A DNA stretch of 50,532 nt from an uncultured archaeon (lineage in GTDB: Archaea > Asgardarchaeota > Lokiarchaeia > Sigyniarchaeales > SOKP01), in NCBI GenBank assembly GCA_964525635.1, contig CAZGJX010000014.1, positions 1 through 50,532 on the forward strand. Reading direction: 5' to 3'. This document shows positions 5,013 through 30,931 of the stretch, piece after piece (the stretch's first letter is position 1; each line of letters starts with the position of its first letter). The notes beneath the pieces are model-generated. The model was not told the origin of the DNA, ran no database searches, and worked only from the letters and a program-made list of their open reading frames with translations. Made by a program: the position numbers and the translations under genes.

Positions 5013-5027
5013 TTTTTTTTTTTTTTT
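5013..5027 (+). terminator. Oligo(T) archaeal terminator
   Basis: Long T run immediately after the stop codon at 5007. Confidence 0.55.
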
Positions 5028-7587: not shown

Positions 7588-7683
7588 TTTTATTCATATA
7601 ATATATCTTATTAAAAATCAAAAAAAAAAGAAATCAACCTTAAGAAATTCGATTTTTAGTGATAGAGAGATATTTTTAGTAAT

Positions 7684-8106
7684 TTAGTTGACAATTAAAT
7701 ATCTAAAATTTTTAATTTCATTGATACTATTAATCTCTACGACTAATTTATGAAAATCTTCTAAGTATCCCTCAAATACCATAAATATAGTTAAATTATT
7801 TTTATGAAAATATTGGTTTTTGCTCACTATATGTTCGTTAAATACAGATTCGACTTTATTAATTTTTTTCTGAACATTGAAATCATTTGGTATTACTATA
7901 ATCATATTCCCAACAATTCTTTTTGATATATCTAATTTCTCTGAATCAATATCTAAAGATGTTGTGTCCATGGTAGACATAAGCCTTAATAATGCATCTC
8001 TAATTAATTTAGACTTATTATCATATTGATTTTTTGAAAGCAGTTTATTAATAAATTTCTTAAGGCTCTCATTTATTGACAGGCTTATTATAGGAATAGA
8101 AATCAC
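7684..8106 (-). CDS. CopG/NikR-like ribbon-helix-helix transcriptional regulator
   Basis: N-terminal PIISLSINESLKKFINKL...YDNKSKLIRDAL RHH domain plus an ACT-like C-terminal domain. Confidence 0.8.
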   Translation of the reverse strand: MISIPIISLSINESLKKFINKLLSKNQYDNKSKLIRDALLRLMSTMDTTSLDIDSEKLDISKRIVGNMIIVIPNDFNVQKKINKVESVFNEHIVSKNQYFHKNNLTIFMVFEGYLEDFHKLVVEINSINEIKNFRYLIVN

Positions 8107-8275: not shown

Positions 8276-11200
8276 TTAAATTAAAATAGTTAAATCCTCT
8301 ATATCATTGATAAATTTATCTGTATAGTCATATATTTCTAAAGCATCTTCATTTGATAGAATTCCACAATTTTCCATTTCTTCTATTTCTAATTTAATAA
8401 GATTCAACTGATTTATTATTTGATTAATATTCATTTCTACAGAGTATGTACAATTTTCAGCTAAAACTATAAGTATATAGTCAAGATATCCCGATATTGC
8501 CCATAATTTATAATTTATGGATAATGTAATTATTCTATCGTAGCTATTGAATAATAAATCTCCGAATTGATTTATTTCAGCTTCAATATTTGCAACTTTC
8601 ATTGATAATTCTGTATTAACTATTCTTCCCATAATAAAGGTTATATTATCTCGTATTTTATGAATTTGTATTGATATATATTCACTATCATTTTCGGAAA
8701 TACAACCAACATTGTCCCAAAGATAAGCCATTAGATCAGCAAATTCTAAATTTACTTTCGAAAGACTTTCTAAAATTAATGTTTCTGTTGTATCATCTAA
8801 AGACATAGTAACTAATGCATTATCTAGATAATTTGAAGCTATCCAAAGGTGAATATCAATAGAGATACTAACCATGAATTCTTGATCATTAAAGATCTTA
8901 TCAGCTAATCGATCAATCTGAATTATTATATTTGCTGTGTCTAATGCACATTCCGTACCAATTATAGCTCCCATTGTTATTGTAATATGATCACGTATTT
9001 TATGTAATTCATTTATTATATAATAAGTAATATCTTCTGGGATCGCATTAAAATTATTGAAAATATATATGAAGAAGTCTGTCATATCTAAATTTGCTTT
9101 TGCAAGTTTGTTTAAAACTACTGATTTTGGCACGTCGGCTAAAATAAATGATTCTAAAGCAGATTCAACATTTACTTCTGCTCGAATTAATTGACTTTCA
9201 AGGATGAAATCATAAGGACAAGATACATTATCATCAATAAATAATTTCAATTCATTAATTTCCAAGAGAATATAGGACATCATATTAGCTGGTGACGTTT
9301 CAAAATGGTCGATTATAACTGTAGTTAAAGCATCATTAATAACATCGTTATCATTATCAACAACTTCTATCATTAATTCATGAGTTCCATATTCAATTAA
9401 CCAATTATCGCTTAGTGTAAATGTAAATGATGTTTCATCAGAATCTGGATTATAAGTAATACATAAAATATTGTCTATGTAAATATTAATAACGGATATA
9501 CCCTGATCATCTCCTTCATCTTCATTTAAAATATCAAAATTTACAGTTAGGTCTAATGGGTTATTTATCAAATCAAGATTTGATAAAATTGGGGCGTTCT
9601 GATCATCATCAATAATGGTAATATGAGCATTGAGAATTGAGGAATTATATTCTGAATTAATATAAACGTTAAAATCTTCTGAACCCCAATAAGTTGGTGT
9701 GAGGATCAATGAAAATGAATCCTGTTGTCCAGGATTTAGTGATAACATATCTGAATCCATTAATTCTGATGAAATTGAAATATTGTCATATGAGAAATTA
9801 AAATTCTGAGCCACATTTCCAAGATTTGTTAATTCAAATTCATAATTCCCAATTTCATGATCATAAATTGTGATTTCTGGTTCAGTACATTCAAATTCAA
9901 GATCGTAAAATTTTCCCACTTCGAATGATCCATCAATTACTATTAATTGGCCAAATATAGGATCCAATGCCGTTATATTACATGGATAAGATCCGGGTAG
10001 AGTATTGAAATTTCTTGGTGGTCTAATAATTAAACAAGGAACAGATTGTCCCGGATATATTACATGTTGTTGTACAAAGGGATCAGTATATTCTTCAGGA
10101 TATAAGTCTTCATAAATAAAAGTTGGATCAATTTCAGAGATATTTAAATATACAAGCTCAGGAATATTTCCATAATTTGTAATGTTTAAGATATATACTG
10201 TTTCTCCAGGAATAATTGGATTAGTCAAATTCTCAAGTTCAAATCTAAGATCACTAAATGAATTCATCCTGAAAGGAACCATTTGATTAAAAATAATATC
10301 ATCCTCCAATTTAATTATAAAATCAAAATAATAAACACCCGCAAGAATACTAGTATTTACTCTAGAGATGGTTAAAGGTATTGAAGATGATAGAGTACCT
10401 GTAAATGATAAAGGTGTTATCTCAAATTCGGGGGGAGCAAGAAACTCAAAAACTACATTGGGATCATCAACACCTTCCAACTGATAATTAAAATTGGTTG
10501 AATAAAATCCTGTTTCAGAATCTATATCCTGCATTTGAGTTGTATAAGATAACTCTATATTTGTTCTTAGTGGTAATTCATCTCGATAATTTATAAAATC
10601 AAACACATCATTCATAAAATTATCCCATGATAAAGGAATAATAAGATATCCATCAGATTCATCATAGGCAAGATAATCCCATAATATAGGCGGAAATATA
10701 GGTATTGGAATGGTTATACTAGTTAACGGAATTTCTATATTATAAAAATATATTGGATTTTTTGCTCTCACTCCTCTATTATAAAATCGTTCTACTAATG
10801 ATTGAAATTCTTCTTCTGAATTTGTTTTTAATAAATAATTATCTTCATTTAATTCAAGTCTGCTTTGAATATTTAAATATTCATTTACAGTTATTTTTAA
10901 TTCTTGTTGACGTAAGTTAATAATCTCATTAGCAGTGTCATAAGCATCCTTATATCTAAATTCTTCTTTAGCTTTGTAAAACTCTTCAATTAAATCATTA
11001 ATTTCAATTTTTTCAATTTCTTCAATTTTAATTGTATTATCATAAAAATCAGATATCGAGTTTTCTAGAACAGGTAATCCCAGAGAAATATTTTCATTAT
11101 ATCTATATCCTGTAACTCTTTGCCACCAGGGAACTACAATTATAATTTCAAATTTTTCCCAATCCATATCCATTTTCAAGTTTAAGTTTAATTCTGGAGC

Positions 11201-12481
11201 TGCTTTCGCTATAGTTATTGAATAATCAGCCTCAAAGGATTCTCCGGGATTATACCACCATTGACCAAATTTTCCTTGCCAACCCGCCCATTCACCTCCT
11301 TCTGCTGCGATATTAGCTCTGAACCAAACAGGTCTATCACCTGTATTTTTAGCATATATATGATAATTAATTATATCTCCTACTTCTAAACTACCATGTC
11401 TTCTCATATTTAGTTCCGTGGAAGCAGGAATTATTGGTCCAGTTCCTGTTAAAAACCCTTGTAAATCCTCAGGAATCATGTCTGGAGTATATATTGTCCA
11501 TTTAGGATTATTAAGTAGAGTTGTAAGCCATCCAGTTAAAAGACTTATTCCTGCTATAATTAATCCCGCAACAACCCCCCAAGGACCTGTTTCACTACAT
11601 GTCGCAGCAATTGCTAATCCAATCCCAATATCAAATGCTACTGTTATTGCAATTTTAGCTAGTTCCATCCAAAATGTATAATCACTAAGATCTCCAGATA
11701 TAAATTGAGCTATTAATGTACCAACTTCAAACACACTAATTAAAACTGCGAGTACAGCGATAGCTTTGCCAAGATATTTTGCTGAATTTAATAAACCATC
11801 CGCGATATTTTTTGCAAATGATGCTATAAAAACAATGGTACCAACGGTAATGCCTAACACACCTATTAATGCTGCACATGTAGATCCAGCAAGACGCATA
11901 AAGAATTCAGCTTCTCTACCACTATATTCTCCTGAGGCATAATCAGCGATCAGACGGAAAATTTCTGTTAAACCAAATATAAATGAAATCATTCCAATAG
12001 TAATTGATACTGCTCCAACAGCAATACCTTCTTTGATAGTTATCTGTCTTTCTGAATGAAGGTCACATGGATCAGCTTGAGGATCTATTTCTATACAAAC
12101 TTTTAAATTATCATAGGAATTCTCCAAATCTATTATTGTATCTCCTATATCATCTGTTCTTGCTAAAAAATCCTCCCACTCTATAATTGGATGATCTGGA
12201 TCCAATACTTCTCTGGCAACATAATCCATATATTCGTCAATTTCCCAACATTCATCAATAAGTCCTTTAAATTCATCAAGTTTCATTAATTTTTGAATAG
12301 ATGTAAAATCATCTCCTATACCTAGATCAAATCCAATAATATTTCCAAGATCATCAACTATCGCATAATTATTTTTAATATTTTCTGCTAAATTCCTATA
12401 CGGGTAAAAATCCACTGTTGGGTAATTTACAAGACCTTCTGGACTTAGAAAATAAGAAACTTTTTCATATAAGGAATCCAA
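8276..12481 (-). CDS. Very large putative surface/membrane protein (Gly/Ala-rich hydrophobic helices, tandem Ig-like domains, helical C-terminus); frame open upstream to about 12633
   Basis: 1401 aa, acidic. Five or six hydrophobic helices at aa ~150-325, repeated (I/L)TNxGN beta-sandwich motifs, and an IIDDDQNAPIL motif. Confidence 0.75.
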   Translation of the reverse strand: MDSLYEKVSYFLSPEGLVNYPTVDFYPYRNLAENIKNNYAIVDDLGNIIGFDLGIGDDFTSIQKLMKLDEFKGLIDECWEIDEYMDYVAREVLDPDHPIIEWEDFLARTDDIGDTIIDLENSYDNLKVCIEIDPQADPCDLHSERQITIKEGIAVGAVSITIGMISFIFGLTEIFRLIADYASGEYSGREAEFFMRLAGSTCAALIGVLGITVGTIVFIASFAKNIADGLLNSAKYLGKAIAVLAVLISVFEVGTLIAQFISGDLSDYTFWMELAKIAITVAFDIGIGLAIAATCSETGPWGVVAGLIIAGISLLTGWLTTLLNNPKWTIYTPDMIPEDLQGFLTGTGPIIPASTELNMRRHGSLEVGDIINYHIYAKNTGDRPVWFRANIAAEGGEWAGWQGKFGQWWYNPGESFEADYSITIAKAAPELNLNLKMDMDWEKFEIIIVVPWWQRVTGYRYNENISLGLPVLENSISDFYDNTIKIEEIEKIEINDLIEEFYKAKEEFRYKDAYDTANEIINLRQQELKITVNEYLNIQSRLELNEDNYLLKTNSEEEFQSLVERFYNRGVRAKNPIYFYNIEIPLTSITIPIPIFPPILWDYLAYDESDGYLIIPLSWDNFMNDVFDFINYRDELPLRTNIELSYTTQMQDIDSETGFYSTNFNYQLEGVDDPNVVFEFLAPPEFEITPLSFTGTLSSSIPLTISRVNTSILAGVYYFDFIIKLEDDIIFNQMVPFRMNSFSDLRFELENLTNPIIPGETVYILNITNYGNIPELVYLNISEIDPTFIYEDLYPEEYTDPFVQQHVIYPGQSVPCLIIRPPRNFNTLPGSYPCNITALDPIFGQLIVIDGSFEVGKFYDLEFECTEPEITIYDHEIGNYEFELTNLGNVAQNFNFSYDNISISSELMDSDMLSLNPGQQDSFSLILTPTYWGSEDFNVYINSEYNSSILNAHITIIDDDQNAPILSNLDLINNPLDLTVNFDILNEDEGDDQGISVINIYIDNILCITYNPDSDETSFTFTLSDNWLIEYGTHELMIEVVDNDNDVINDALTTVIIDHFETSPANMMSYILLEINELKLFIDDNVSCPYDFILESQLIRAEVNVESALESFILADVPKSVVLNKLAKANLDMTDFFIYIFNNFNAIPEDITYYIINELHKIRDHITITMGAIIGTECALDTANIIIQIDRLADKIFNDQEFMVSISIDIHLWIASNYLDNALVTMSLDDTTETLILESLSKVNLEFADLMAYLWDNVGCISENDSEYISIQIHKIRDNITFIMGRIVNTELSMKVANIEAEINQFGDLLFNSYDRIITLSINYKLWAISGYLDYILIVLAENCTYSVEMNINQIINQLNLIKLEIEEMENCGILSNEDALEIYDYTDKFINDIEDLTILI

Positions 12482-12558
12482 AGAATCATATACATCATCT
12501 AAGAATTTATTATAATCTATATAAATAGGGATAGAATATTTATTAAAGAATCTTCCCC

Positions 12559-12702
12559 CTAATTCAACATCTCTCCACCTATTATCAAAGATTTCTTTAT
12601 AGATATCATATTCGCATTTAAAATTGAAATACTACTAGAAAAAATAATTAAAATCAATAGACAAATTCCTTTAATTTTTGTTTGAATTCTCTTGAAATTC
12701 AT
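12559..12702 (-). CDS. 47-aa ORF encoding a signal peptide; probable true N-terminus of the 1401-aa protein, out of frame
   Basis: AGGTGA RBS, then MNFKRIQTKIKGICLLILIIFSSSISILNA... It overlaps the open frame of the downstream large ORF. Confidence 0.65.
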   Translation of the reverse strand: MNFKRIQTKIKGICLLILIIFSSSISILNANMISIKKSLIIGGEMLN

Positions 12703-12828
12703 TAATCATTCACCTGATTATAATTTTTAATTTTGGACTAGTATATTTATTATATAAATATTTTGATATTATTATATTAATAATTCACTGAATTTTACAA
12801 TTTTTTAAGAATATTTGAAAATTTAAAT

Positions 12829-14355
12829 ATGCATAAAGATTATGTAATCATTAATAGAGAGTTAATAAAAGTAAAATATAGAAGTCATCAAAAAACTTAC
12901 AGTTATTTAGAACTCAATAATAAAGAAATTAGAGATATCTTTGAAATCAAAGGATTAGAAACTTTAAATTATTTAGAAGAGTTAGATCTCAGCAACAATA
13001 AAATTTCTAAAATTAAAGGTCTTGATAGCTTGACGAATTTGAAGGCCCTTAATTTATCGAGAAATACTATTAAGAAAATAAAAGGTCTTTCTAATTTAAA
13101 TAATTTAAAGTATTTAAATCTTGAAGAAAATAAAATAACGGAAATTGAGAATCTTGAAGATCTTATCAATCTAAAGATGCTAAATTTATCAAATAATCCA
13201 ATAGATTGGATTATTTCAAATAAATTAAATTTACATAAAGGTTTATTATTTACTAATAATGTTGAAAAAATATTGCAATATTGTTTCAAGAAAAAAATTC
13301 AGAAGCAACAAGTTAAAAATCAAGAGTATATTAAATATAAGGATGAAGTTTATTATCCTTTAAAGAATCATTTAAATCTAAGTAATATAGGAATTGATGA
13401 TCTTTCAGAAATTAAAAGATTTGAAAAAATTCCAAAATTAAAATCGTTAAATCTTTCATACAATATAATTTCTATAGTTAGAGATTTAAATAATCTTAAA
13501 AATTTAAGATCTCTAGATTTGAGTCATAATAAGATAGAACAAATAATAGATTTGCAAAGTCTTCAAAATCTTAAACATTTAAATATCTCACATAATAAAA
13601 TTAAAAAAATAGATTTTTTAACTAAATTACCTAATCTAAATTCAGTAAATCTTAGTTTTAACAAATTAAATGAAATTAAAGGTTTAAATATGTTACAAAA
13701 TCTTATACATATAGATATTAGATCTAATAATCTTCAAAATTTGAAAGGAATAGAGGAACTTGTAAATATTGAAGAATTAAATCTTTCTCGGAATAAAATT
13801 GAAAATATCCCTTTACTTTATTTATTAAAAAAATTAAGAAAGCTAAATCTTTCATATAATAAAATTAGAAATATAAATAATTTAAATAATCTAAGAAATT
13901 TAGAATATTTATCATTAAATTCAAATAATATTAGTTCTATTGTAGGTCTTGAAACTTTAGAAAATTTAAAATACTTAAATTTATCATGGAATAAACTTAG
14001 TGATATTACTTCTATTGAAAATCTTGAATGTCTGACTTTTCTAAATTTAAATAAAAACAAAATTGTAAATAGTGATGAGCTTGGGAAAATTATTTCCCTT
14101 GAACATTTATATTTGAATGATAATTATATTTCTAATGTTTCTCCTTTAGGTAATCTAAAAAAATTAAAAAGATTGAGTCTTGACAATAATCAAATAATTA
14201 AATTTAATATTCTTAAAAGTTTGCCTAATTTAAGAGTACTTTCTTTGAAGAATAATCCTTTAATAAATGTAATAGAAATTAAAACCTATAAGAATATAGA
14301 TTTTATATATTTGAATGAAAAGAATAATAATAGTATTGATAATAAAAGGAAATAA
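12829..14355 (+). CDS. Leucine-rich repeat protein (SDS22/internalin-like 22-aa repeats)
   Basis: Numerous LxxLxLxxNxIxxIxxL repeats arranged in two blocks. Confidence 0.93.
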   Translation: MHKDYVIINRELIKVKYRSHQKTYSYLELNNKEIRDIFEIKGLETLNYLEELDLSNNKISKIKGLDSLTNLKALNLSRNTIKKIKGLSNLNNLKYLNLEENKITEIENLEDLINLKMLNLSNNPIDWIISNKLNLHKGLLFTNNVEKILQYCFKKKIQKQQVKNQEYIKYKDEVYYPLKNHLNLSNIGIDDLSEIKRFEKIPKLKSLNLSYNIISIVRDLNNLKNLRSLDLSHNKIEQIIDLQSLQNLKHLNISHNKIKKIDFLTKLPNLNSVNLSFNKLNEIKGLNMLQNLIHIDIRSNNLQNLKGIEELVNIEELNLSRNKIENIPLLYLLKKLRKLNLSYNKIRNINNLNNLRNLEYLSLNSNNISSIVGLETLENLKYLNLSWNKLSDITSIENLECLTFLNLNKNKIVNSDELGKIISLEHLYLNDNYISNVSPLGNLKKLKRLSLDNNQIIKFNILKSLPNLRVLSLKNNPLINVIEIKTYKNIDFIYLNEKNNNSIDNKRK

Positions 14356-14390
14356 TATAATTTTTCCAAAGATTCATAGTAGTAGATAAA

Positions 14391-14573
14391 TTAATGTCTC
14401 ATTTTTTTAAATAGATAATAGGAACTAAATATTAATATTTCACTTATTATAAAAAATATAAAATAGAAGATTAATAGAAAATTTCTTTCAATTATATTAA
14501 AAAATATAATTAAGAATAATATAGATAACAAAATACCTGAAGCCATTAATATATAAACAGTAATAATCCTCAT
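14391..14573 (-). CDS. Small two-TM hypothetical protein
   Basis: 60 aa, two hydrophobic helices and a basic C-terminus; could be a spurious ORF in AT-rich DNA. Confidence 0.4.
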   Translation of the reverse strand: MRIITVYILMASGILLSILFLIIFFNIIERNFLLIFYFIFFIISEILIFSSYYLFKKMRH

Positions 14574-14821
14574 AATATCTGACTGATTTTAGATTAAATA
14601 GGAATATCTTTATTTATTATAATTAGATTTTCATATTTAATATTTATGTATATAAAAATGATATTAATTGTATTTCCAAGATACTTAAATAGTTTCCATA
14701 AAAATATTTTTAAATGAACTTTACAAAAATATTATAATAATAACTTAAAATTCAAAATAAAACAAAAAAAAGGGATAAAAATTTCAAAAAAAAAAAATTA
14801 TCTTTTTTATTTTTATCAATC

Positions 14822-17800
14822 TTGATAATTTCATCATCAAATTGGGGTAATTATATCAATAAATATAATTTGAAAGAGGAAAGTTTTGAATTAAACAATC
14901 TACAAATATCATATGACACTGACTCTATTTTATTCGATGGATTTTACTATAATTGGTATGCTATTATAAATGATAATCCATTAGGATTTGTTAATGGCAT
15001 TGAAAATTATACATATGAGAGTAATAACATTTTTAAATGTAATGAAACAACTATTTTTGGAACAGGTGATCCTTACTATGAGGAAAGAAATGTAAATAAC
15101 AAAACAAGATTATATGATACATCATTAATTTGGGGGAATGGAAAGTATGATTGGGTTTGGATTTTTCGTAATACAACTTTTAACACTAAAAATATTCCAA
15201 TCGCTACTTTTGAAGGTGGAACTCCTGAAGAAGAACACTTATTTAATGTTACAGGAGAATCTTTTATCAATTTATATGACTCTCTTTATGATGTTTGGGT
15301 ATTAGAAGATGATCGGGGGAGCATTGCCTATTATGAAAAGAATACTGGTATTTTAATAAAAGGATTTTTCTATTTTGCAGGTTCAAATACATGGGAAATT
15401 AATATGACTGAAACAAATGTTATTTTTCCATCTAATATAAATACCCCTCAATTAAAAAATCCTAATTTAAATCTAATGATCGGAAACTTAACTACTAATT
15501 TCAGATTTATAGTAAACTATTCTGATGCTGATAATAATATACCGACCTCCATCAATGTAGTAATAAATAATACAGCTTATAGAATGACCAAACAAGATCT
15601 AGGAGATACAAATTATACTAATGGTGTCTTATATGAATATCAAACATTTCTAAAATATGGAACATATAATTACTTCTTTAATGCATCTGATGGAGTATTT
15701 TCTACCTCAACAAGCACTTTTTCTGGTCCTAAAGTGTATTATAATAACTCATATTCACCAATACTGAACCAAGGTACAGTAGATCCACAATTAGGATATA
15801 ATGCAACAACAGAATTTCTATTTCGAGTGAATTATTCAGATACTGATAATAATCCCCCTGAATATATCAATGTTGAGATAAACAATACTGTATATTCGAT
15901 GATAAAAGAGGATGAGTCTGATTTAAATTATATGGATGGTACATTTTTTAGATATCCAATAATATTAAATGATACAGGTTATTATATTTTTAATTTTACG
16001 GCATTTGATGGGATTAATACCGTTTATCTTCCAGGAACGGGATTTTATCATAATCCAAATGTGACGAGACATGATTTAAATGATATAAATATTGGATGGA
16101 TAGTTACTCATGGAGAAGATTCTAATACCTCATATTCTACATTTTTAAATGATGCATTAGGTCTAGGAGCAACATCTAGCCAGTTCCATAAAGATATAAG
16201 CCCTTCTACTTTATATCCATATGAATTACTTATGCTTGAAGAAGGCGGAGATGCTTGGTCAAAACAGGAATTAATAAATCTACATTATTGGATTGAGAAT
16301 GGAGGAGCATTATTAATTATTGGAGATAATCTAGGGAATGCTCAATTAAGTGTAAGTAATTATTTTAATATATCTTATTCATCTTTAAGTGGAACCATAG
16401 GTTCATCTGCTCAAATTTATCATCCCCATTATCTTACAGTAGAAATAAACAATTTATTCTTCGATAATTCAATTGCATCAATTAATATTAGTAATTCTAA
16501 TTCAAATTTGCAGATTATAGCTAACGCATCGAATGGAAGAGCTCAAATATGCCTATTAGAATTAGGGATGGGAAAGATTTTATGGATTGTAGATGAGATT
16601 TTAGATAATACTCAAATCTCAAGTGCAAATAACCGATTATTTGGATTAAATGTTTTAAGATGGATGAGTGAAAATAAAGTGAATAATTTTATTCCTGATC
16701 TTTCTAGTGCCAACGTGGACCCTATTGAAGGTAATACGACAACTTTTTTCAATTTCTCAGTAATATATACAGATCAAGATAATAATGGCCCTATGAATAT
16801 TAGCTTAAATATTAATGGGAATATTTACCAAATGGAAAAACAAGATCCTTTAGATTTTGATTATAAGGACGGTGTTGTGTTTAAAACTATTACTACATTA
16901 CAAAACGGAACTTATTATTATTTTATAAATGCTTCTGATGGTGAAAATAATATAAGTACATCAGTTTTAGTGGGTCCAAATGTGAATTATAATAATATTA
17001 ATCCACCAGAATTAACTTTTGGAATGGTATTACCAATTGAAGGTTATGAACATCAATTTTTTACATTTCAAGTTAATTATTCAGATAAAGATAATAATGC
17101 ACCTAAATATCTGAATATAACTATCGATGGAAATTCATATGAAATGTATAAAATTGATCCATTGGACGACTATTATCTTGATGGAGTGATCTATGAATAT
17201 AAAACATTATTAGATATTGGATCACATCTATATTTTTTTAATACATCTGATGGAGTCTTTGATTCTTCAACTATAATGTTTTTTGGTCCTTTAGTGAATT
17301 CATCACCATTAAAAGATATGAGAATAGGGTGGATTACAGCACATGGAGAAAATTCATACACATTATATCATAATGATCTTATAAATGATGCTATTCATAT
17401 GGGAGCAGAAGTTGCTATAATAAGCTCATCAATAAATAATATTATATTACAAGATCTTGATATAATAGTGGTAAATGACGGAGGAGTTAGCTGGGCAACT
17501 AATGAATTAGATTATTTAGAAGATTGGATAATTAATGGTCATTCTGTTTTAATTTTGGGAGATAATCGTGATAATTCTCAGGTGAGTGTAAGTTCAAGAT
17601 TTAAAGTGTATTATTCAAGTCAATCGGGTTATGGAGGGAATTCAACTCAAATTTATCATCCTCATGATATTACAAATGGAGTATCAGAGGTAAATTTTCC
17701 ATATCCTACATGTTCAATTTCATCCAGTTCAAACATATATTTAACTCCAATTATAAATGATACTTCTGGAAATTACAATTATGTAAGTTATTTACAATAT

Positions 17801-18343
17801 GGTTCAGGAAAATTATTGTGGATTACAGATGATAGCTTTTCAGATCTTTATCTTAACCGAGCAGATAATAATTTATTGGCGAATAATACCTGGAAATGGC
17901 TAGCAAATACTGCTCTGAATCAAAATGCACCTAATATTACTAAGGTTGAAGTTATCCCCTCCACAGGATATTCTAATACTCAATTCCGTTTCTATTTATA
18001 TTATTCAGATTTGGATGGTTCTGCTCCAATAGAAGTTTCAATCGTATTAAATGGAACTTCATATCAAATGAAAAGACAAGATGTATTTAATGAGAATTAT
18101 ATGGATTCTGTAACATATAAATTTTCCATTACATTATCTGCTGGAACATATAATTATTACTTTAACATAACTGATGGAAAATATAATACAAGTCATCCTT
18201 TAGGTGAATTGCAATTGATAGTTAAAGAGAAAACAAATGGAGGAGATAATACTCTAATTATCATTTTAGGAATTACTATTCCTATTGGAATCATAGCTGT
18301 TGCTGTAATTGTAATCCTAATAAAAAGAAGAAACGTAATATAA
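14822..18343 (+). CDS. Membrane-anchored extracellular glycoprotein with five Ig-like repeats and two GATase1-like/GIFT (IFT52/GldG/DUF4350-like) domains
   Basis: Five copies of FxVNYSDxDNNxP...YxMxKxD...DG...YxFNxSDG and two copies of IGWIxxHGE...ELxxLxxWIxNGxxxLIxGDN...GKxLWI...NN. C-terminal TM plus KRR, and many NxS/T sequons. Confidence 0.82.
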   Translation: MIISSSNWGNYINKYNLKEESFELNNLQISYDTDSILFDGFYYNWYAIINDNPLGFVNGIENYTYESNNIFKCNETTIFGTGDPYYEERNVNNKTRLYDTSLIWGNGKYDWVWIFRNTTFNTKNIPIATFEGGTPEEEHLFNVTGESFINLYDSLYDVWVLEDDRGSIAYYEKNTGILIKGFFYFAGSNTWEINMTETNVIFPSNINTPQLKNPNLNLMIGNLTTNFRFIVNYSDADNNIPTSINVVINNTAYRMTKQDLGDTNYTNGVLYEYQTFLKYGTYNYFFNASDGVFSTSTSTFSGPKVYYNNSYSPILNQGTVDPQLGYNATTEFLFRVNYSDTDNNPPEYINVEINNTVYSMIKEDESDLNYMDGTFFRYPIILNDTGYYIFNFTAFDGINTVYLPGTGFYHNPNVTRHDLNDINIGWIVTHGEDSNTSYSTFLNDALGLGATSSQFHKDISPSTLYPYELLMLEEGGDAWSKQELINLHYWIENGGALLIIGDNLGNAQLSVSNYFNISYSSLSGTIGSSAQIYHPHYLTVEINNLFFDNSIASINISNSNSNLQIIANASNGRAQICLLELGMGKILWIVDEILDNTQISSANNRLFGLNVLRWMSENKVNNFIPDLSSANVDPIEGNTTTFFNFSVIYTDQDNNGPMNISLNINGNIYQMEKQDPLDFDYKDGVVFKTITTLQNGTYYYFINASDGENNISTSVLVGPNVNYNNINPPELTFGMVLPIEGYEHQFFTFQVNYSDKDNNAPKYLNITIDGNSYEMYKIDPLDDYYLDGVIYEYKTLLDIGSHLYFFNTSDGVFDSSTIMFFGPLVNSSPLKDMRIGWITAHGENSYTLYHNDLINDAIHMGAEVAIISSSINNIILQDLDIIVVNDGGVSWATNELDYLEDWIINGHSVLILGDNRDNSQVSVSSRFKVYYSSQSGYGGNSTQIYHPHDITNGVSEVNFPYPTCSISSSSNIYLTPIINDTSGNYNYVSYLQYGSGKLLWITDDSFSDLYLNRADNNLLANNTWKWLANTALNQNAPNITKVEVIPSTGYSNTQFRFYLYYSDLDGSAPIEVSIVLNGTSYQMKRQDVFNENYMDSVTYKFSITLSAGTYNYYFNITDGKYNTSHPLGELQLIVKEKTNGGDNTLIIILGITIPIGIIAVAVIVILIKRRNVI

Positions 18344-18556: not shown

Positions 18557-20908
18557 TTATAATTGAATAAAACGGGCCAAGGCATTTTTAAATTTCTCTA
18601 CATCATCTGCTAATTTTTCAGCATCTTTATCGTTTATACTTTCATCTTTTTCATATTTATTTAATAAAGTTAGCCAATATTCAATTCTTCCTAAGATAGG
18701 ATTCTCATCACCCAACAATTTTCTAAGGCGCACAAAGGTATCATGAAGTTTATTTCGAATATTTAATGCTTTCCATCGGAGCATACAATAATCACTTATT
18801 TCTGCTAAATTTTGTGTTACTGCCATTACATCAATAGTCTTCTCACGTTCTTCTGATCTGATTTTTCTGATGATATTAATTTCCTCAAATAGAATTTCTA
18901 TGACCTTTGCTAAAAATCCTGTTAATTGACCTGGATTTGCAGTCCATACGCGTACCTCTAATGATTGACTTTTTTCTGATATAAACACTCGAGTTACTAT
19001 TCGCCCTCCAGTAACTTTTGCTTCAGCGCAAAACCATGCCTCAGCTTTATATCCTTCTTCTTTGATACTATCTTCATGTGAAGTTATCATACTTGTGTCA
19101 AAGTTTTTCAACGCTCTAATAGCGGCTCTATATGCTAGTCTAGGATCTAAATCTGCTATTAAAAAAGCTCGAGCATCATCTGGAAGGCTTTGAATTGCTA
19201 ATTGACAATCTTCAATATTTGATAAGGAAGTACAGACCAATGGACATTTTATTTGTACCTCCTTCTTTTTTATAGGAATTGAACTTTGTTCTCCCTGAGC
19301 ATTTTTATAAATAACAGTACCCCCTATATTTGAGATTCCACATTCTTTTGGCTCAATATAAAAATCAACTCCTCGAGAATTACCTGATTCAATAACAGGA
19401 ATATTTATAATGCCCTCCTTCATTTTATAGCTTGTTGGGGCATCCAAAACTACTTTAACATTATTAATCGCCAAATTACTCTTATTTCGAACAACAACTT
19501 TAAATCGAACCTGACCTCCAACAAAATCATATTCTCTTACTACTTCAATCTTATCCTCATCTTCGTGTTTTCTTATTTTTTGTGGAGCACTATATTGATC
19601 TGCTGTGGATACACTATATGCAACAAACAAGCGTTTAGCCATATCAATATATCCATCAATATCTCCTCTCCCAATTAATAGGGCAAGCATTTCCTCAATA
19701 CTGGATTCTGTGACACTTAATCTATTTGAAAGTTCCTTTAGTGGCATTGTTCTATATGCTTTAGCGAGCTCCTTAATTCTTCCCTGTAATGATTTCTCTG
19801 TTATAAACTCTCTTCTCTGAGTGAATATTCCCTTTATCTTTCCATTTTTGATTAAATCATGCAGACTTCTTCTAGCTAACTCAACAGCTATCTTTAGTTC
19901 ATTAGCTAACTTCATTAATTCAAATTTGCCATTTTTATCAGCATAATTCTTTATTTCTTTGTAAATTTGATTTGAAGTTATAACTTCATTTCCTTTATTT
20001 GCAAAGAAAGCAGAAATTTCCTTAGTTCTCATTAAATTAACACAAAAAGATTTCATTAAATCTTTTGGAATATTATATCTATTAGCCAAGTCTTTTAATG
20101 AAACTCTTCCTTTCTTATTTATTTCTTTTATGGTTGTAGTTATTATATAAGATTGAGTGTAATATATTTTCTTATCAAGTGTGAATGAACCTTTAATTTT
20201 ATAGTGACTTAATAATTTATATATTATTTTTAATACAATTTCAGAACTAATATCTAACATTAAAGCGAGATCCTCAATTTTTACAATTCCCTCATCATGA
20301 AATTTAGCTAATAATTTTTCTTTCAATTCAGGAGGGATATTATAAAACATATTATGATTTCTATCTATAATCCCATAAATCTGTTCCTCTTGAAGATATT
20401 TTGAAACTAATCTTAACATTTGATCTTCAGAAATATTGAATGAACTTGTAATTGTAGAGAAGTTGGTTATAGATGAATGCTTTAATAGATCTAAAAAGCA
20501 TTTAGGGCATACTTGCCTTCCTTCATAATATTTCAGTTTTTTTCCACATGGTTTAAAACCAGACACTAAACCATATCTATTAGCTTCCCTTGCAAGTTTT
20601 TCTTTAGAAGCAAAAAATAAACCCGGTGTTTTTAAATAGGAATTCCAAGAACATTTAGTACATTTTAAATAATACTGCCCCGAAGAAAGCCTATCTAATT
20701 GTAATAATGAGCTACATTCTGGACATTTACTTTCTTCTACAACAGTGCACCTATAATAGGTTTCTGTAGCATTTGCTTTTGAATATTTAATGAAATGTTT
20801 TCTACATTCCCATTGTTCCGTAGTTGCGATATGATTAATACAAAAACTAGAATTACACTTTTCACATGTAAAATCAATATTCTCACTTTCACAAAATAGA
20901 CATTTCAT
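18557..20908 (-). CDS. Zn-finger + tandem winged-helix (PCI/UFL1-like) + Ig-sandwich/platform appendage protein
   Basis: N-terminal CxxC/CxxH clusters, about 5 WH repeats (the last PCI-like: YRTMPLKELSNRL...LIGRGDIDGYID), then a beta-sandwich, an alpha/beta subdomain and a helical tail. Confidence 0.75.
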   Translation of the reverse strand: MKCLFCESENIDFTCEKCNSSFCINHIATTEQWECRKHFIKYSKANATETYYRCTVVEESKCPECSSLLQLDRLSSGQYYLKCTKCSWNSYLKTPGLFFASKEKLAREANRYGLVSGFKPCGKKLKYYEGRQVCPKCFLDLLKHSSITNFSTITSSFNISEDQMLRLVSKYLQEEQIYGIIDRNHNMFYNIPPELKEKLLAKFHDEGIVKIEDLALMLDISSEIVLKIIYKLLSHYKIKGSFTLDKKIYYTQSYIITTTIKEINKKGRVSLKDLANRYNIPKDLMKSFCVNLMRTKEISAFFANKGNEVITSNQIYKEIKNYADKNGKFELMKLANELKIAVELARRSLHDLIKNGKIKGIFTQRREFITEKSLQGRIKELAKAYRTMPLKELSNRLSVTESSIEEMLALLIGRGDIDGYIDMAKRLFVAYSVSTADQYSAPQKIRKHEDEDKIEVVREYDFVGGQVRFKVVVRNKSNLAINNVKVVLDAPTSYKMKEGIINIPVIESGNSRGVDFYIEPKECGISNIGGTVIYKNAQGEQSSIPIKKKEVQIKCPLVCTSLSNIEDCQLAIQSLPDDARAFLIADLDPRLAYRAAIRALKNFDTSMITSHEDSIKEEGYKAEAWFCAEAKVTGGRIVTRVFISEKSQSLEVRVWTANPGQLTGFLAKVIEILFEEINIIRKIRSEEREKTIDVMAVTQNLAEISDYCMLRWKALNIRNKLHDTFVRLRKLLGDENPILGRIEYWLTLLNKYEKDESINDKDAEKLADDVEKFKNALARFIQL

Positions 20909-27623: not shown

Positions 27624-29618
27624 ATGAGTGAATCAGAAAAGAAAGCAACTAAAAAAGAAAGAATTATCGGTATAGATTTAGGAACATCTAATAGTGCTTG
27701 TGCGGTATTGAATGCTGTTGGAAAACCAGAGATCGTTCCTGCCGCTGAAGGAAGAACATTAGGTGGAAAGGCATTTCCTTCATATGTTGCGTTTGATGAA
27801 AATGGTCGTAAAGTGGTAGGAGAACCTGCACGAAGACAAGCACTCTCTAATCCAGAGGGCACCATAACAGCTATTAAACGTAAAATGGGTACTTCCTATA
27901 AAGCTAATGTTAAAGTTGGAAGTGAAAGAAAAGATTTTTCTCCAGAAGAAATATCTGCAATGATCTTAAAAAAGATAAAGAATGATGCTTCGAAATATCT
28001 TGGAGAGGAGGTTAAAAAAGCTGTTATAACGGTTCCTGCTTATTTCAATGATGCTCAAAGAACTTCGACGAAAAATGCAGGTGAAATTGCAGGATTAGAA
28101 GTTGTTCGTATGATAAATGAACCTACCGCAGCTTGCTTGGCATATGGATTAGACAGAGTTTCAAAAAAATTGTTAAAAATATGTGTTCTTGATTTAGGTG
28201 GAGGTACATTCGATGTTACAATTATGGAATATGGAGAGGGTGTTGTTGAAGTTTTATCTACGGCTGGTGATACGCAATTAGGTGGTACAGATATGGATAA
28301 TTTACTTATCAATTGGATTGCAGAAGAATTTCAGAAGAAAGAAGGTATCGATCTTAGAAATGATGAAAAATCTAAAGTTAGAATAAAAGATGCAGTAGAG
28401 AAAGCTAAAATTGAACTTTCAACTACATTATCTACAGAAATAAATTTACCTTATATTACTCAAAAAGATGGAAATCCTGTTCATTTAGAAATGCAGCTCA
28501 CAAGGGCTAAATTAGAATCTCTTATTGATCCCATATTAAGACGATTAGATCCGATTATGAGGCGTGCTGTAGAAGATAGCAAATTAAAAATCAATCAAGT
28601 TCATAAAATAATCTTAGTGGGGGGTCCAACTAGAATGCCATGTGTTCAAGATAGATTTAAAAATTTTTTTAATAAAGAACCTGAGCATTCTGTAGATCCT
28701 ATGGAATGTGTTGCTATTGGAGCAGCAATACAAGGTGGTGTTATTGCTGGAGATGTAGAAGATCTTCTTTTATTGGATGTCACACCTCTTTCTTTAGGTG
28801 TAGAGACGTTGGGGGGTGTTTTTACCAAATTAATTGAAAGAAATACAACAATACCGACGGAGAAGAAAGAAACATTCAGTACAGCAAGTGATAATCAACC
28901 AGCAGTAACTATTAATGTACTTCAAGGCGAGAGAGCTATGGCAAAAGATAATATTTCACTTGGTCAATTTCATTTAACTGGTATACCTCCTGCTCCAAGA
29001 GGAATGCCACAGATAGAGGTCAAATTTTCCATCGATGCAGATGGTATTGTGCATGTCACAGCAAAGGATTTGGGAACTGGGAAGGAAACAGGAATAACTG
29101 TAACCGGTACAAAAGGTTTATCTGAGGATGAAATACAACAAAAAATTAGAGATGCTGAGAAATTTGAGCAGGAAGACGTGAAAGTAAGAGAATTAGTTCA
29201 AGAGAGAAATAATGCTGAATCTATGATTTACCAAATCAAGAAATTAATGGATGATAATAAAGATAAAATACAAGATGATGAAAAGCAACAAATTGAAGCA
29301 GCGATAAAATCTTTAGAAGAAGATATTAAAGGTGAAGATGTCCAAAGAATGAAACTAGGGATAGAAAATCTTCAAAAAGCGATGCATGGATTCTCACAAA
29401 GAATTTATGGTCAACAAGCACAATCTCAAGCTTATCAACAAGCTGCTGAGCAGGCTCAGAGGGCCGCTCAGGGAACGGGTGATATACCGCCGGGAGGTAT
29501 GGGGGGAACTCCTGAAACGGGAGATAAAGGTGTTGGTGGAGCCTCTTATAAATCTAAGGAAGAAAAAGATGACGATAAGACGGTAGTAGATGTAGATTGG
29601 GATGATGAATCAGATTAA
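27624..29618 (+). CDS. dnaK: Hsp70 chaperone DnaK
   Basis: [47 protein letters not shown]. Lacks the ~23-aa N-terminal insert, as in the archaeal/Gram-positive type. Confidence 0.99.
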
Positions 29619-29818
29619 TTCTTTCCTCTAATTAATATAACCTCAAATTTGGAAAAATAATAGAGAGATCAGTCTATTATTTTTTATTAAATTGTATTTA
29701 TTTTTTCTTTTTTCTTTTTTTTGTAATTGAGAAATCAGCCAATCTAAAAAAATAAATTTAATTAATAATTTCTATAATCAGAAAGATAGATAATAACTAA
29801 TTAGTTGGGTTAAATAGC

Positions 29819-30931
29819 ATGAGTTCAGGCAATAAAAGAGACTACTATGAAGTTTTAGGAGTAAATAAGGAATCATCTACGGAGGATGTCAAACTTGCAT
29901 ATAGAAGATTGGCTCGTAAGTATCATCCGGATGTTAATAAAGAAGATCCTCATGCAAAGGATAAATTTATTGAAGTTCAAGAAGCTTATGAAGTTTTAAG
30001 TGATCCTGAAAAACGAAAGAACTATGATAACTTCGGATTTAGAGGTGTAGATATTGATATGAGTGATTTCTTTAGAGGCGGGATTCCTGGTATCGATGAT
30101 ATTTTTGAATCATTTTTTGGAGGTTTTGGGGGATTTGGAGGCTTTGGTAATAGCTCAAGAGCAAGACAAAGGAGTCCAAGAAGACAAGTTGGACAAGATA
30201 TTGAAGAATCACTTAATATCACCTTTAAAGAAGCGATGTTTGGAGTAAAGAAGGATATTAAGATAAAAAGATACATTCCTTGTTCAGAATGTGATGGTAG
30301 TGGAGCAGAAAATAGCTCTTCCATTCAAACTTGTTCAGAGTGTCAAGGTTCTGGTAGATATAGAAAAATGACTCGTTCTGGATTTGGTACAATTATAAGA
30401 GAGACTGAATGTCCTTATTGCCATGGAGAAGGAAATATAATTACGAAAAAATGTAAAACTTGTGAAGGAAATAAAGTAATACAAGAAGAAAAGGAAATTA
30501 CTGGAATAAAAATACCTGGTGGTATAGAAGATGGAGTTCATTTGAAAGTACAAGGGACTGGACATATTCCATCTCGTGAAGCAATTCCAGGAGATCTATA
30601 TTTGAGAATCACTATAGAACCTAATGAAAATTTTATCAGAAGAGGAAATGATCTCTATACTAAGGCTGATATTGATATAGTGACTGCTATTATTGGTGGT
30701 GAAATCAAAGTACCCACTTTAGATTATAAGAATGAAGAAATATCAGAAAAAGAATTAACAATCCCACCTGGGACCGAATATGCAACTGAGTTTAGGATAA
30801 AGAATCGTGGAGCATCGTATATTCATGGTAAGGGAAGGGGTGATCAATATGTCATCGCTAATATTATTCTCCCAAAAAAAATAACCAAAGAACAAGAAGA
30901 ATTATTGTTAAAATTTAGAAAATTATCTTAA
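29819..30931 (+). CDS. dnaJ: Hsp40 chaperone DnaJ
   Basis: J-domain with HPD, a G/F-rich region and four CxxCxGxG-type repeats. Confidence 0.98.

What the first reader, a model, noticed from the sequence alone, without database searches (positions are those of the whole stretch)
18557..20908. Best candidate new system: Zn fingers + UFL1/PCI-like winged-helix array + coat-adaptor-like appendage in one Asgard protein
Seen: a Cys/His-rich N-terminus (AN1/B-box-like CLFC..CEKC...FCINH plus further CxxC pairs) and about 5 tandem WH repeats, e.g. SFTLDKKIYYTQ...INKKGRVSLKDLA and NKGNEVITSNQIYKEI...GKFELMKLA, the last being PCI-like. Then an Ig sandwich (VRFKVVVRNKS...SRGVDFYIEP...GGTVIYKN), an alpha/beta platform (AWFCAEAKVTGGRIVTRV...LEVRVW...LTGFL) and a helical tail. 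Known (from memory): the UFM1 E3 scaffold UFL1 has tandem WH repeats with a similar TLDGKEYIT...GGRV pattern, and sandwich+platform appendages characterise adaptins, COPI beta/gamma and BBS2/7/9. Inference: a single polypeptide linking Ub/Ubl-type or proteasome-lid-type scaffolding with membrane-coat appendage function, that is a eukaryotic-signature fusion.
Basis: partly seen in the sequence, partly recalled or inferred. Interest (0 to 1): 0.8.

Follow-up and report, generated by a model that had tools for sequence, protein, structure and literature searches.

The report
Known Asgard UFL1-appendage-Vps28 scaffold protein
This Lokiarchaeal gene encodes a real, highly conserved 783-residue scaffold (zinc fingers, five UFL1/DDRGK1-type winged helices, an adaptin-like appendage and a Vps28 tail); the architecture is already published, but it carries in one chain the winged-helix platform that eukaryotes split between DDRGK1 and UFL1.

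Summary
Window 18557-20908 (-) is one 783-aa ORF. It has 16 conserved Cys/His ligands, exactly five winged helices (WH), an Ig sandwich, an alpha/beta platform and a four-helix tail. Both half-models are confident (pLDDT 89-90).

- The WH array is specifically UFL1/DDRGK1-like (PDB 8b9x: Foldseek E 6.5e-14; VIA Z 14.8).
- The C-half is adaptin/COPI-appendage-like.

It is not a new system. Liu et al. 2020/21 and Makarova et al. 2024 describe this architecture as asCOG cog.003822. This scan had also met it on other genomes.

The genome shows no UFM1 or UFC1 with these queries, and UFL1's E2-binding helix is absent, so a UFM1 ligase role is unlikely. The genome does encode Vps4, Vps25, Vps22, Vps28 and a ubiquitin-like/E1/E2 cluster.

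My best reading (about 0.45) is an adaptor that docks on ESCRT-II through its Vps28-C tail.

One point I did not find in print: human DDRGK1 (207-297) and UFL1 (27-245) align collinearly and abut inside WH2. This suggests the eukaryotic pair arose by fission of such an array.

The parts
18557..20908 (-). Whole gene: 783-aa protein P0001 plus stop codon
   Evidence: Single copy in the genome.
20795..20902 (-). Zinc finger 1, residues 3-38. Eight-ligand cross-brace pattern C-x2-C-x8-C-x2-C-x4-C-x2-H-x8-C-x2-H (AN1/B-box/HIT-like).
   Evidence: Ligands invariant or nearly so in 22 relatives. Matches are sub-threshold: ANCHR B-box 0.0044, zf-AN1 0.037 (6e-4 in a paralog), Cuz1 AN1 structure 0.09.
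20639..20749 (-). Zinc ribbon, residues 54-90 (C62-x2-C65 ... C83-x2-C86), plus conserved C54
   Evidence: RPC10/RPB9-type ribbon at E 0.029 in the PDB and 0.034 in Pfam.
20498..20548 (-). Residues 121-137: C121 and C134-x2-C137. Probable fourth zinc site, perhaps with C54; it leads into helix 1 of WH1.
   Evidence: Invariant Cys. Metal binding is inferred, not shown.
20339..20506 (-). WH1, residues 135-190. Counterpart of the full winged helix of DDRGK1 (WH1').
   Evidence: Model. The family profile aligns human DDRGK1 207-297 to profile 126-218. The Pfam DDRGK profile falls here in 22 of 28 orthologs.
20156..20332 (-). WH2, residues 193-251. One contiguous winged helix equivalent to the eukaryotic composite WH (DDRGK1 pWH' plus UFL1 pWH). 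The DDRGK1 match ends at about residue 217 and the UFL1 match starts at about 220, between helices H2 and H3.
19976..20155 (-). WH3, residues 252-311. Counterpart of UFL1 WH1.
19799..19975 (-). WH4, residues 312-370. Counterpart of UFL1 WH2; also resembles the eS25 winged helix.
19619..19798 (-). WH5, residues 371-430. Counterpart of UFL1 WH3 and the most PCI-like repeat.
   Evidence: Pfam PCI best stretch 378-429. CSN4 and Rpn WH at Z about 12, rmsd about 1 A. UFL1 aligns up to residue 245.
19550..19618 (-). Linker, residues 431-453. Low-confidence and probably flexible.
   Evidence: pLDDT below 50 in both models
19250..19549 (-). Ig-like beta sandwich, residues 454-553 (first subdomain of the appendage)
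   Evidence: Model. Generic Ig matches at Z 12-13. Together with the next domain it matches adaptin, COPI and BBS9 appendages.
18944..19237 (-). Alpha/beta platform, residues 558-655 (second subdomain of the appendage)
   Evidence: AP-4 beta appendage 2mj7: Z 13.7, rmsd 2.7 A, 118 of 141 residues aligned, spanning residues 556-683, so the match also runs into the first half of the long helix that follows the platform.
18563..18934 (-). Long helix plus four-helix bundle, residues 659-782. Vps28 C-terminal domain; the structural match covers 683-782.
   Evidence: 2j9w_A: Z 15.1, rmsd 2.2 A, 98 of 101 residues. Family profile against Vps28 CTD 2.2e-4. Pfam VPS28 22.2 bits against a cut-off of 24.5.

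Best explanation
The gene encodes a soluble multidomain scaffold. It belongs to the published Asgard family asCOG cog.003822.

Shown here, from N- to C-terminus:
- a roughly 130-residue module with 16 conserved Cys/His ligands;
- a rod of five PCI-type winged helices, homologous to and collinear with the DDRGK1-UFL1 platform of the eukaryotic UFM1 ligase;
- a flexible linker;
- a two-part appendage (Ig sandwich plus platform) of the adaptin/COPI type;
- a Vps28 C-terminal four-helix bundle.

Inferred mechanism: the protein is an adaptor, not a UFM1 ligase. The Vps28-C bundle docks on ESCRT-II (Vps22/Vps25, both encoded in this genome), as Vps28 does in eukaryotes. The appendage acts as a hub for short-motif partners. 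The zinc fingers and the WH rod recognise the target, possibly a ubiquitin-like-modified protein. The protein would thus bring ESCRT-II/III-Vps4 membrane remodelling to its targets without ESCRT-I. Makarova et al. 2024 propose this 'ESCRT-0 analogue' role for this class of proteins.

The identity and architecture are near certain. The confidence given below is for the mechanism.
For: - Architecture.
- Published description of the same domain combination.
- Vps28-C: Z 15.1 over 98 of 101 residues, family profile E 2.2e-4 covering the whole domain, and Pfam just under its cut-off.
- ESCRT machinery in the same genome: Vps4, a Vps25-like and an EAP30/Vps22-like gene on C56, and canonical Vps28 on C50.
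- A ubiquitin-like/E1/E2 cluster on C26.
- Not a UFM1 E3: no Ufm1 or UFC1 match in a genome estimated 100% complete. UFL1 profile positions 1-20, the UFC1-binding helix needed for ligase activity (Banerjee 2023), are unmatched in nearly all orthologs.
- Strong purifying selection: single copy, found in 62 of 68 genomes of its own family at 58% identity or more where the match is full-length (mostly 64-88%), and in 7 of 7 genomes of the sister family (43-46% in those with a full-length match). The C-half is more conserved than the WH array (47-57% against 34-36% identity to the sister-family orthologs).
Against: - No binding step has been shown.
- There is no operon link to ESCRT, ubiquitin or coat genes. 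The local gene order GT87-HisA-DsbD-like is conserved only within the family and is uninformative.
- Which Asgard ESCRT-II surface, if any, binds a Vps28-C domain has not been established experimentally (Hatano 2022).
- The gene was not found in 6 of 68 genomes of its family, three of them about 99% complete, although three of those six (two of them about 99% complete) were among the genomes searched for Vps22 and have it. It is therefore not an obligate ESCRT-II partner.
- The sandwich subdomain alone is a generic Ig fold, and no adaptin Pfam family reaches threshold.
Confidence: 0.45

Rival explanations
1. Ribosome-associated factor. The DDRGK1/UFL1-like WH rod docks on the large ribosomal subunit, as the eukaryotic complex does on 60S, in an ancestral UFM1-independent role. 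The C-terminal modules couple the ribosome to other machinery.
For: - After the chimera, the best structural matches of the array are UFL1 chains solved on the 60S subunit (8qfc_B 3.7e-12, 8ohd_A 2.4e-11).
- Picchianti 2023 suggest a UFM1-independent ancestral function for Asgard UFL1/DDRGK1 homologs.
- WH4 resembles eS25.
- The NCBIfam model for an Asgard protein encoded next to SepSecS matches residues 587-782 across the full profile (E 1e-8).
Against: - The eukaryotic ribosome contacts depend largely on parts that are missing here. Per Peter 2022, UFL1 WH3-WH4 and part of WH2 are needed for ribosome UFMylation, and the DDRGK1 N-terminal region contributes to substrate recognition. From my own knowledge, not checked here, the UFL1 C-terminal region and CDK5RAP3 also contribute.
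- The link to the Sec-associated protein is weak by profile-profile comparison (E 0.029, probability 1.7%).
- eS25-type similarity is generic to winged helices.
Confidence: 0.2
2. Scaffold-type E3, or E2-docking platform, for the archaeon's own ubiquitin-like system. It would use WH1-WH3, the equivalent of the minimal UFL1/UFBP1 ligase domain.
For: - Peter 2022 define the minimal ligase as WH1' plus the composite WH plus WH1. These are exactly the repeats conserved here as WH1-WH3.
- The genome encodes ubiquitin-like, E1 and E2 genes.
- AN1-like fingers occur in ubiquitin-proteasome factors (my own knowledge, not tested).
Against: - The UFL1 N-terminal helix, which is essential for E2 binding and activity, has no counterpart.
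- The natural protein resembles the inactive deltaN fusion.
- There is no genomic linkage to the Ub/E1/E2 cluster.
Confidence: 0.12
3. Zinc-finger/winged-helix DNA-binding transcription regulator, as some automatic annotations say (DtxR, Lrp or ArsR family).
For: Weak Pfam matches to HTH_DeoR, Rrf2, IclR and FeoC. JGI names for orthologs.
Against: - These matches are far weaker than those to PCI, UFL1 and DDRGK.
- The array superposes as a rigid unit on a protein scaffold (Z 14.8, 240 residues).
- The C-terminal half is made of protein-interaction modules from trafficking systems.
Confidence: 0.04

Closest known systems
asCOG cog.003822 (Liu et al. 2020/2021; Makarova et al. [quoted passage not shown]
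   Same: All four named components are present here in the same order. The lineage (Lokiarchaeota) is the same.
   Different: Nothing substantive differs; this gene is an ortholog. The papers give no residue-level anatomy. They do not mention DDRGK1, and they do not note that the array is collinear with the DDRGK1-UFL1 pair.
Human DDRGK1(UFBP1)-UFL1 winged-helix platform, as in the engineered fusion DDRGK1:207-305-UFL1:27-200 (PDB 8b9x; Banerjee et al. 2023)
   Same: WH1-WH4 superpose on the whole chimera (Z 14.8, rmsd 3.6 A, 240 of 256 residues; TM 0.68). The family profile aligns it at E 2.5e-17, collinearly through the junction.
   Different: - It is one natural chain, with a complete second winged helix.
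- There is no UFC1-binding N-terminal helix, no transmembrane anchor or DDRGK1 N-terminal region, and no UFL1 WH4-5 or C-terminal region.
- No UFM1 or UFC1 was found in the genome.
- Zinc fingers sit upstream, and an appendage plus Vps28-C sit downstream.
Appendage ('ear') domains of AP2 alpha/beta2, AP-4 beta, COPI beta/gamma and BBS9
   Same: The order of subdomains is the same: sandwich, then platform. Foldseek E is 1e-10 to 1e-7 over about 240 columns. The platform scores Z 13.7 against AP-4 beta.
   Different: - The angle between the subdomains differs (rmsd 12-14 A when both are aligned; TM 0.33-0.40).
- No adaptin trunk is present.
- No adaptin Pfam family reaches its threshold.
- Motif-binding residues were not examined.
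Vps28 C-terminal domain (ESCRT-I), e.g. 2j9w, 2j9u
   Same: The four-helix bundle matches over the whole domain (Z 15.1, rmsd 2.2 A; profile E 2.2e-4).
   Different: It lacks the Vps28 N-terminal core (steadiness box) that builds ESCRT-I. The genome has a separate canonical Vps28.
Small single-chain four-WH proteins (about 253 aa) of another Asgard family (f7; earlier scan notes call the lineage 'Heimdall-group')
   Same: They are collinear with WH1-WH4 of this family (hhalign probability 92%, E 7e-7). The order of Pfam matches is the same, DDRGK then UFL1.
   Different: They are standalone proteins, with no zinc fingers, appendage or Vps28-C. Their similarity to the eukaryotic proteins is much weaker (8b9x E 0.14 against 1.2e-5 for this protein).

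Membership tests
asCOG cog.003822 (Asgard UFL1 / Zn / Adaptin-C / Vps28-C fusion) | E3_UFM1_ligase-type WH domain | tested here: met
   PF09743 at 57.6 bits against a cut-off of 23.2.
asCOG cog.003822 (Asgard UFL1 / Zn / Adaptin-C / Vps28-C fusion) | Zinc-binding domains | tested here: met
   16 conserved Cys/His in finger and ribbon patterns. Metal binding itself was not measured.
asCOG cog.003822 (Asgard UFL1 / Zn / Adaptin-C / Vps28-C fusion) | Adaptin-C (appendage) region followed by a Vps28 C-terminal region | tested here: met
asCOG cog.003822 (Asgard UFL1 / Zn / Adaptin-C / Vps28-C fusion) | Direct sequence match to a listed member of the asCOG | not testable with these tools
   The supplement lists only identifiers, and its one example is a 106-aa contig-end fragment of Lokiarchaeum GC14_75. 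No sequence was available.
UFL1 (E3 UFM1-protein ligase 1) | Pfam E3_UFM1_ligase match above the curated cut-off | tested here: met
   Human UFL1 27-245 aligns to profile 221-431 at E 2.8e-7.
UFL1 (E3 UFM1-protein ligase 1) | N-terminal helix (residues 1-25) that binds UFC1 and is required for ligase activity | tested here: not met
   PF09743 positions 1-20 are unmatched here and in nearly all orthologs. That position is occupied by H1-b1-H2 of WH2.
UFL1 (E3 UFM1-protein ligase 1) | Partial first WH that needs DDRGK1 to be completed | tested here: not met
   WH2 is a complete winged helix in one chain.
UFL1 (E3 UFM1-protein ligase 1) | UFM1 and UFC1 encoded in the same genome | tested here: not met
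   PF03671 and PF08694 gave no match in a genome estimated 100% complete. The UFC1 control rang in no genome, so this means 'not found with this query'.
DDRGK1 (UFBP1) | Pfam DDRGK match above the curated cut-off | tested here: met
   45.5 bits against 27.8. Human DDRGK1 207-297 aligns to profile 126-218 at E 5e-7.
DDRGK1 (UFBP1) | N-terminal transmembrane anchor and long helical region | tested here: not met
   The N-terminus consists of zinc fingers. Only profile positions from about 100 onward match.
PCI-domain proteins (proteasome lid, CSN, eIF3) | PCI-type winged-helix subdomain | tested here: met
   PF01399 at 68.7 bits in four stretches. WH5 against CSN4 and Rpn: Z about 12, rmsd about 1 A.
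PCI-domain proteins (proteasome lid, CSN, eIF3) | Helical-repeat (TPR-like) portion preceding the WH | tested here: not met
   No helical solenoid appears in the model. The repeats are back-to-back winged helices.
Adaptin/COPI appendage | Ig sandwich followed by an alpha/beta platform | tested here: met
   The top Foldseek hits are COPI, AP2 alpha and AP2 beta2, each over about 240 columns. The platform scores Z 13.7 against AP-4 beta.
Adaptin/COPI appendage | Sequence-family membership (Alpha_adaptinC2, B2-adapt-app_C and similar) | tested here: not met
   Only GAE_BBS1 appears, at E 0.024. A relative (P0139) gives Alpha_adaptinC2 at 0.0047.
Adaptin/COPI appendage | Conserved motif-binding pockets (FxDxF, DPF/W sites) | not tested
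   No residue-level structural alignment was available.
Vps28 (ESCRT-I) | C-terminal four-helix bundle | tested here: met
   Pfam scores 22.2 bits against a cut-off of 24.5 here. Many orthologs carry PF03997 among their precomputed Pfam domains.
Vps28 (ESCRT-I) | N-terminal core/steadiness box that assembles ESCRT-I | tested here: not met
   Only profile positions 88-186 match.
AN1-type zinc finger | C-x2-C-x(9-12)-C-x(1-2)-C-x4-C-x2-H-x5-H-x-C signature and a Pfam match | tested here: inconclusive
   The first six ligands fit apart from a slightly short first spacer (x8 against x9-12). The last pair is C-x2-H after x8. zf-AN1 scores 14.6 bits against 27.9 here and reaches at best 6e-4 in a paralog.

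The most novel reading that the evidence does not exclude
This family, together with the small four-WH proteins of another Asgard lineage, preserves the unsplit form of the platform of the eukaryotic UFM1 E3 ligase.

On this reading, DDRGK1 and UFL1 arose by fission of one contiguous winged-helix array, with the break between helices H2 and H3 of the second winged helix (about residues 217/220 here). UFL1 then gained the UFC1-binding N-terminal helix and DDRGK1 gained a membrane anchor. The ancestral array had a UFM1-independent scaffold role, here wired to ESCRT/coat-type modules.

I found no statement of this in the searchable literature. Picchianti 2023 treat the Asgard homologs of UFL1 and DDRGK1 as separate proteins, and the ESCRT papers do not mention DDRGK1.
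Probability: 0.5. Interest if true: 0.6.

Novelty: already known. Interest (0 to 1): 0.4.

Why it matters
As an object this is a published but functionally untested Asgard 'eukaryotic signature' fusion, so the window adds one more ortholog.

Three points here have value:

1. There is now a residue-level anatomy with confident models. This turns a database label into testable domains.

2. Evidence from the same genome argues against a UFM1 ligase. No UFM1 or UFC1 was found, and the E2-binding helix is absent.

3. Human DDRGK1 and UFL1 map onto one chain and abut inside one winged helix. If that reflects history, it explains an odd feature of the UFM1 E3: a winged helix shared between two polypeptides, neither of which folds alone. 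It would also date the scaffold to before UFM1 itself. The question of what the scaffold did originally becomes approachable in cultured Lokiarchaeia.

Tried and rejected
- **Complex prediction.** The Vps28-C tail (alignment A5) was folded with the genome's Vps22-like ESCRT-II subunit (A4). The result was 'no answer' (score 0.00). This is no evidence either way.

- **Expression.** One sediment metatranscriptome holds a small share of the gene's words. Nothing can be said about transcription.

- **Single-repeat Pfam scans**. Each winged helix alone gives only sub-threshold hits. WH2 and WH3 do not pick a unique UFL1 or DDRGK position, so one-to-one repeat orthology is not shown at that level.

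- **Register.** In this window's own protein, the single-sequence searches place the DDRGK match one repeat later, at residues 196-279. The collinear register is a family-level result.

- **Sel_Asgard link.** BLASTP is not significant. hhalign gives E 0.029 and probability 1.7%. This stands against a full-length NCBIfam HMM hit at 1e-8. The link is left as a side note.

- **Operon context.** Nothing informative was found.

- **UFM1 and UFC1 profiles.** No match in the genome.

- **Adaptin Pfam families.** None reaches threshold.

- **Eukaryotic sequences.** None could be obtained beyond the human PDB chains and the Pfam profiles, so no phylogeny of repeats was made. The best 150 of the exhaustive search included no recognisably eukaryotic protein among those I checked.

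Full report
**What is there.** Window 18557-20908 (minus strand) is a single 783-aa ORF. The window has about 27% G+C. The gene's closest relatives are labelled Lokiarchaeota or Promethearchaeota MAGs, and near-identical DNA occurs in salt-marsh metagenomes.

Pfam gives PCI (5e-19, four stretches), E3_UFM1_ligase (2e-15; residues 220-430 on profile 21-234 of 272) and DDRGK (9e-12). All three are above their curated cut-offs. VPS28 falls just below its cut-off (residues 684-779, 22.2 bits against 24.5), and there is a faint GAE_BBS1 hit.

More than 100 full-length relatives at 65-91% identity exist. They are annotated only as 'PCI domain-containing' or 'DUF2042'.

**Anatomy from models.** I folded the two halves with alignments of orthologs.

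The N-half model (pLDDT 88.6) shows small beta-hairpin zinc modules. These are followed by exactly five regular winged helices at residues 135-190, 193-251, 252-311, 312-370 and 371-430.

The C-half model (pLDDT 89.9) shows three parts:
- a beta sandwich (454-553);
- an alpha/beta platform (558-655);
- a long helix running into a four-helix bundle (659-782).

A linker of about 20 residues joins the two halves and has low confidence in both models.

The zinc region has 16 conserved Cys/His. These form an eight-ligand cross-brace finger (C-x2-C-x8-C-x2-C-x4-C-x2-H-x8-C-x2-H), a C4 ribbon, and C54/C121/C134/C137. Its matches to AN1, B-box and HIT fingers and to RPB9-type ribbons are consistent across divergent relatives. 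They all remain sub-threshold.

**What the parts resemble.**

*The WH array is specifically UFL1/DDRGK1-like.* The engineered DDRGK1-UFL1 chimera 8b9x is the best PDB match by four measures:

| Method | Result |
|---|---|
| Single sequence (phmmer) | E 1.2e-5 |
| Family profile | E 2.5e-17 |
| Foldseek | E 6.5e-14, TM 0.68 |
| VIA | Z 14.8, rmsd 3.6 A, 240 of 256 residues, model 129-373 |

Ribosome-bound UFL1 follows at about 1e-11. The next fold classes are much weaker: SelB at 6e-6, RPC62 at about 1e-4, ESCRT-II at 3e-3 and CSN at 7e-3. WH5 on its own looks most like the PCI winged helix of CSN4 and lid subunits.

*The C-half.* Its top Foldseek matches are COPI, AP2 alpha, AP2 beta2, gamma-COP and BBS9 (1e-10 to 1e-7, about 240 columns). 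With VIA:
- the platform matches the AP-4 beta appendage (Z 13.7, rmsd 2.7 A, 118 of 141 residues);
- the sandwich is a generic Ig fold;
- alignments across both subdomains have a large rmsd, so the hinge angle differs;
- the tail is a Vps28 C-terminal domain (Z 15.1, rmsd 2.2 A, 98 of 101 residues).

The family profile supports the Vps28 assignment (E 2.2e-4 over the whole domain).

**Already published.** Table S2 of Makarova et al. [quoted passage not shown] Their text treats such Vps28-C/appendage/HTH-PCI proteins as possible ESCRT-0 analogues.

Liu et al. (2020 preprint of the 2021 Nature paper) describe the same fusion. They say its function cannot be inferred.

Picchianti et al. [quoted passage not shown]

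An earlier follow-up in this scan reached the same verdict on another genome, and I verified its citation. The 'new system' claim therefore fails, although the domain calls are right.

**Genome context.** The genome (4.45 Mb, estimated 100% complete) contains the following:

| Query | Result |
|---|---|
| Ufm1, UFC1 | no match |
| UFL1-like locus | only this gene |
| Canonical Vps28 | present on C50 |
| Vps4, Vps25-like, EAP30/Vps22-like | clustered on C56 |
| Ubiquitin-like, E1, E2 | clustered on C26 |

Neighbouring genes (DsbD-like, HisA, GT87) are syntenic only within the family. They differ in the sister-family ortholog.

*Phyletic pattern among 301 sampled genomes of the phylum.* The full-length gene is single-copy. 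It is present in 62 of 68 genomes of its own family and in 7 of 7 genomes of the sister family (43-46% identity in those with a full-length match). Only divergent versions occur elsewhere in the class. Outside the class only the appendage module recurs, in many other architectures.

The eukaryotic UFL1 profile scores best in precisely this family (1e-13 to 1e-20).

**The collinear DDRGK1-UFL1 reading.** With the family profile, human DDRGK1 207-297 aligns to positions 126-218 (E 5e-7). Human UFL1 27-245 aligns to positions 221-431 (E 2.8e-7). The two chains therefore abut inside WH2, between H2 and H3.

The chimera aligns through the junction in one path. Its score (64 bits) is about the sum of its two parts. 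The structural superposition and the end of the DDRGK1-only match (model residue about 220) agree with this.

Across 28 orthologs, the best DDRGK Pfam placement is in this register in 22. It is one repeat later in 5, including this window's own protein, and elsewhere in 1. In the collinear cases the UFL1 match starts within -6 to +14 residues of the DDRGK end.

In eukaryotes this winged helix is composite (DDRGK1 pWH' plus UFL1 pWH), and neither protein folds alone. A domain split of that kind is more simply explained by fission of a contiguous array than by fusion of two half-domains.

Small four-WH proteins of about 253 aa in another Asgard family are collinear with WH1-WH4 (probability 92%, E 7e-7). 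Earlier scan notes had flagged such proteins.

*Caveats.* The repeats resemble each other. Single-repeat scans are ambiguous for WH2 and WH3. Only human chains and Pfam profiles stood in for eukaryotes. No phylogeny was made.

I found no paper in the searchable library that states this reading.

**Mechanism.** Shown: the architecture, the absence of the UFC1-binding helix, no UFM1 or UFC1 found with these queries, the presence of ESCRT-I/II/III-Vps4 and a ubiquitin-like cascade, and strong conservation. The C-half is more conserved than the array.

Inferred: the protein is an adaptor whose Vps28-C tail docks on ESCRT-II. Its appendage collects short-motif partners. Its zinc/WH part recognises the target. 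I give this about 0.45.

Rivals:
- a ribosome-associated role inherited with the UFL1/DDRGK1 platform (0.2);
- a scaffold-type E3 for the archaeal ubiquitin-like system (0.12);
- a transcription factor (0.04).

The one complex prediction gave no verdict and is not counted either way.

**Verdict.** This is a real, striking and well-conserved protein. The architecture is already in the literature and the function is still untested. The added value here is the residue-level anatomy, the case against a UFM1-ligase role, and the fission hypothesis for the origin of the DDRGK1-UFL1 pair.

Noticed in passing
own genome, contig C50:11664-12341 (+) (locus L004), outside the window: The true member of NCBIfam NF045535 ('Sel_Asgard', 224 bits) lies directly downstream of SepSecS. 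It sits about 8 kb from the canonical Vps28 gene. The same HMM matches residues 587-782 of the studied protein across its full length (E 1e-8). The Sec-associated Asgard hypothetical protein noted by the selenoproteome paper (PMC11227280) may therefore share the platform-end plus Vps28-C-like module. BLASTP and hhalign do not confirm this (E 0.17; E 0.029).
   Followed up: partly
window 8276-18343: About 10 kb holding three large genes lies between the studied gene and its usual downstream neighbours. The three genes are a 1401-aa ORF with no Pfam match (8276-12481, -), a 508-aa LRR protein (12829-14355, +) and a 1173-aa repetitive protein with a C-terminal hydrophobic stretch and a weak ABC_transp_aux/GIFT-like hit (14822-18343, +). 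In orthologous loci L017 and L019 the gene is followed directly by a roughly 140-aa ORF, a parvulin gene and then HD, Fer4 and FttA genes. In the window the Fer4 and FttA genes (and, judging by size only, the roughly 140-aa ORF) reappear at 1289-8106. This looks like an insertion of surface-protein genes.
   Followed up: partly
protein P0141 (1258 aa) compared with window 14822-18343: A distant relative fuses an ABC_transp_aux/IFT52-GIFT-like domain to a UFL1/DDRGK-type WH array and an Ig (DUF11) domain. The convergent neighbour of the studied gene also has an ABC_transp_aux-like stretch. This may be coincidence.
   Followed up: no
residues about 445-690 of the protein (window about 18839-19576): The sandwich-plus-platform module recurs in well over 100 other representative proteins of 300-2300 aa. 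It carries conserved motifs (invariant C523-G524 and P556; nearly invariant K554-C555). It therefore looks like a mobile Asgard appendage module with two conserved cysteines whose role is unknown.
   Followed up: partly
loci L061-L064 (genomes G286, G026, G003, G133): Standalone four-WH proteins of about 253-266 aa from another Asgard family are collinear with WH1-WH4 of the studied protein. Their Pfam matches run in the same order, DDRGK then UFL1.
   Followed up: partly
proteins P0135 and P0137 (723-724 aa, labelled Helarchaeota): These paralogs share the zinc module and the WH array. They continue with further UFL1/PCI-type winged helices up to the C-terminus, in place of the appendage and Vps28-C. 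The head and rod are thus combined with different tails in different lineages.
   Followed up: no
window 27624-30931: An Hsp70 (DnaK) gene and a DnaJ gene lie side by side. The rest of the window holds ordinary housekeeping genes: FttA/aCPSF1 at 1289-3211 and H+-pyrophosphatase at 39801-41912.
   Followed up: no
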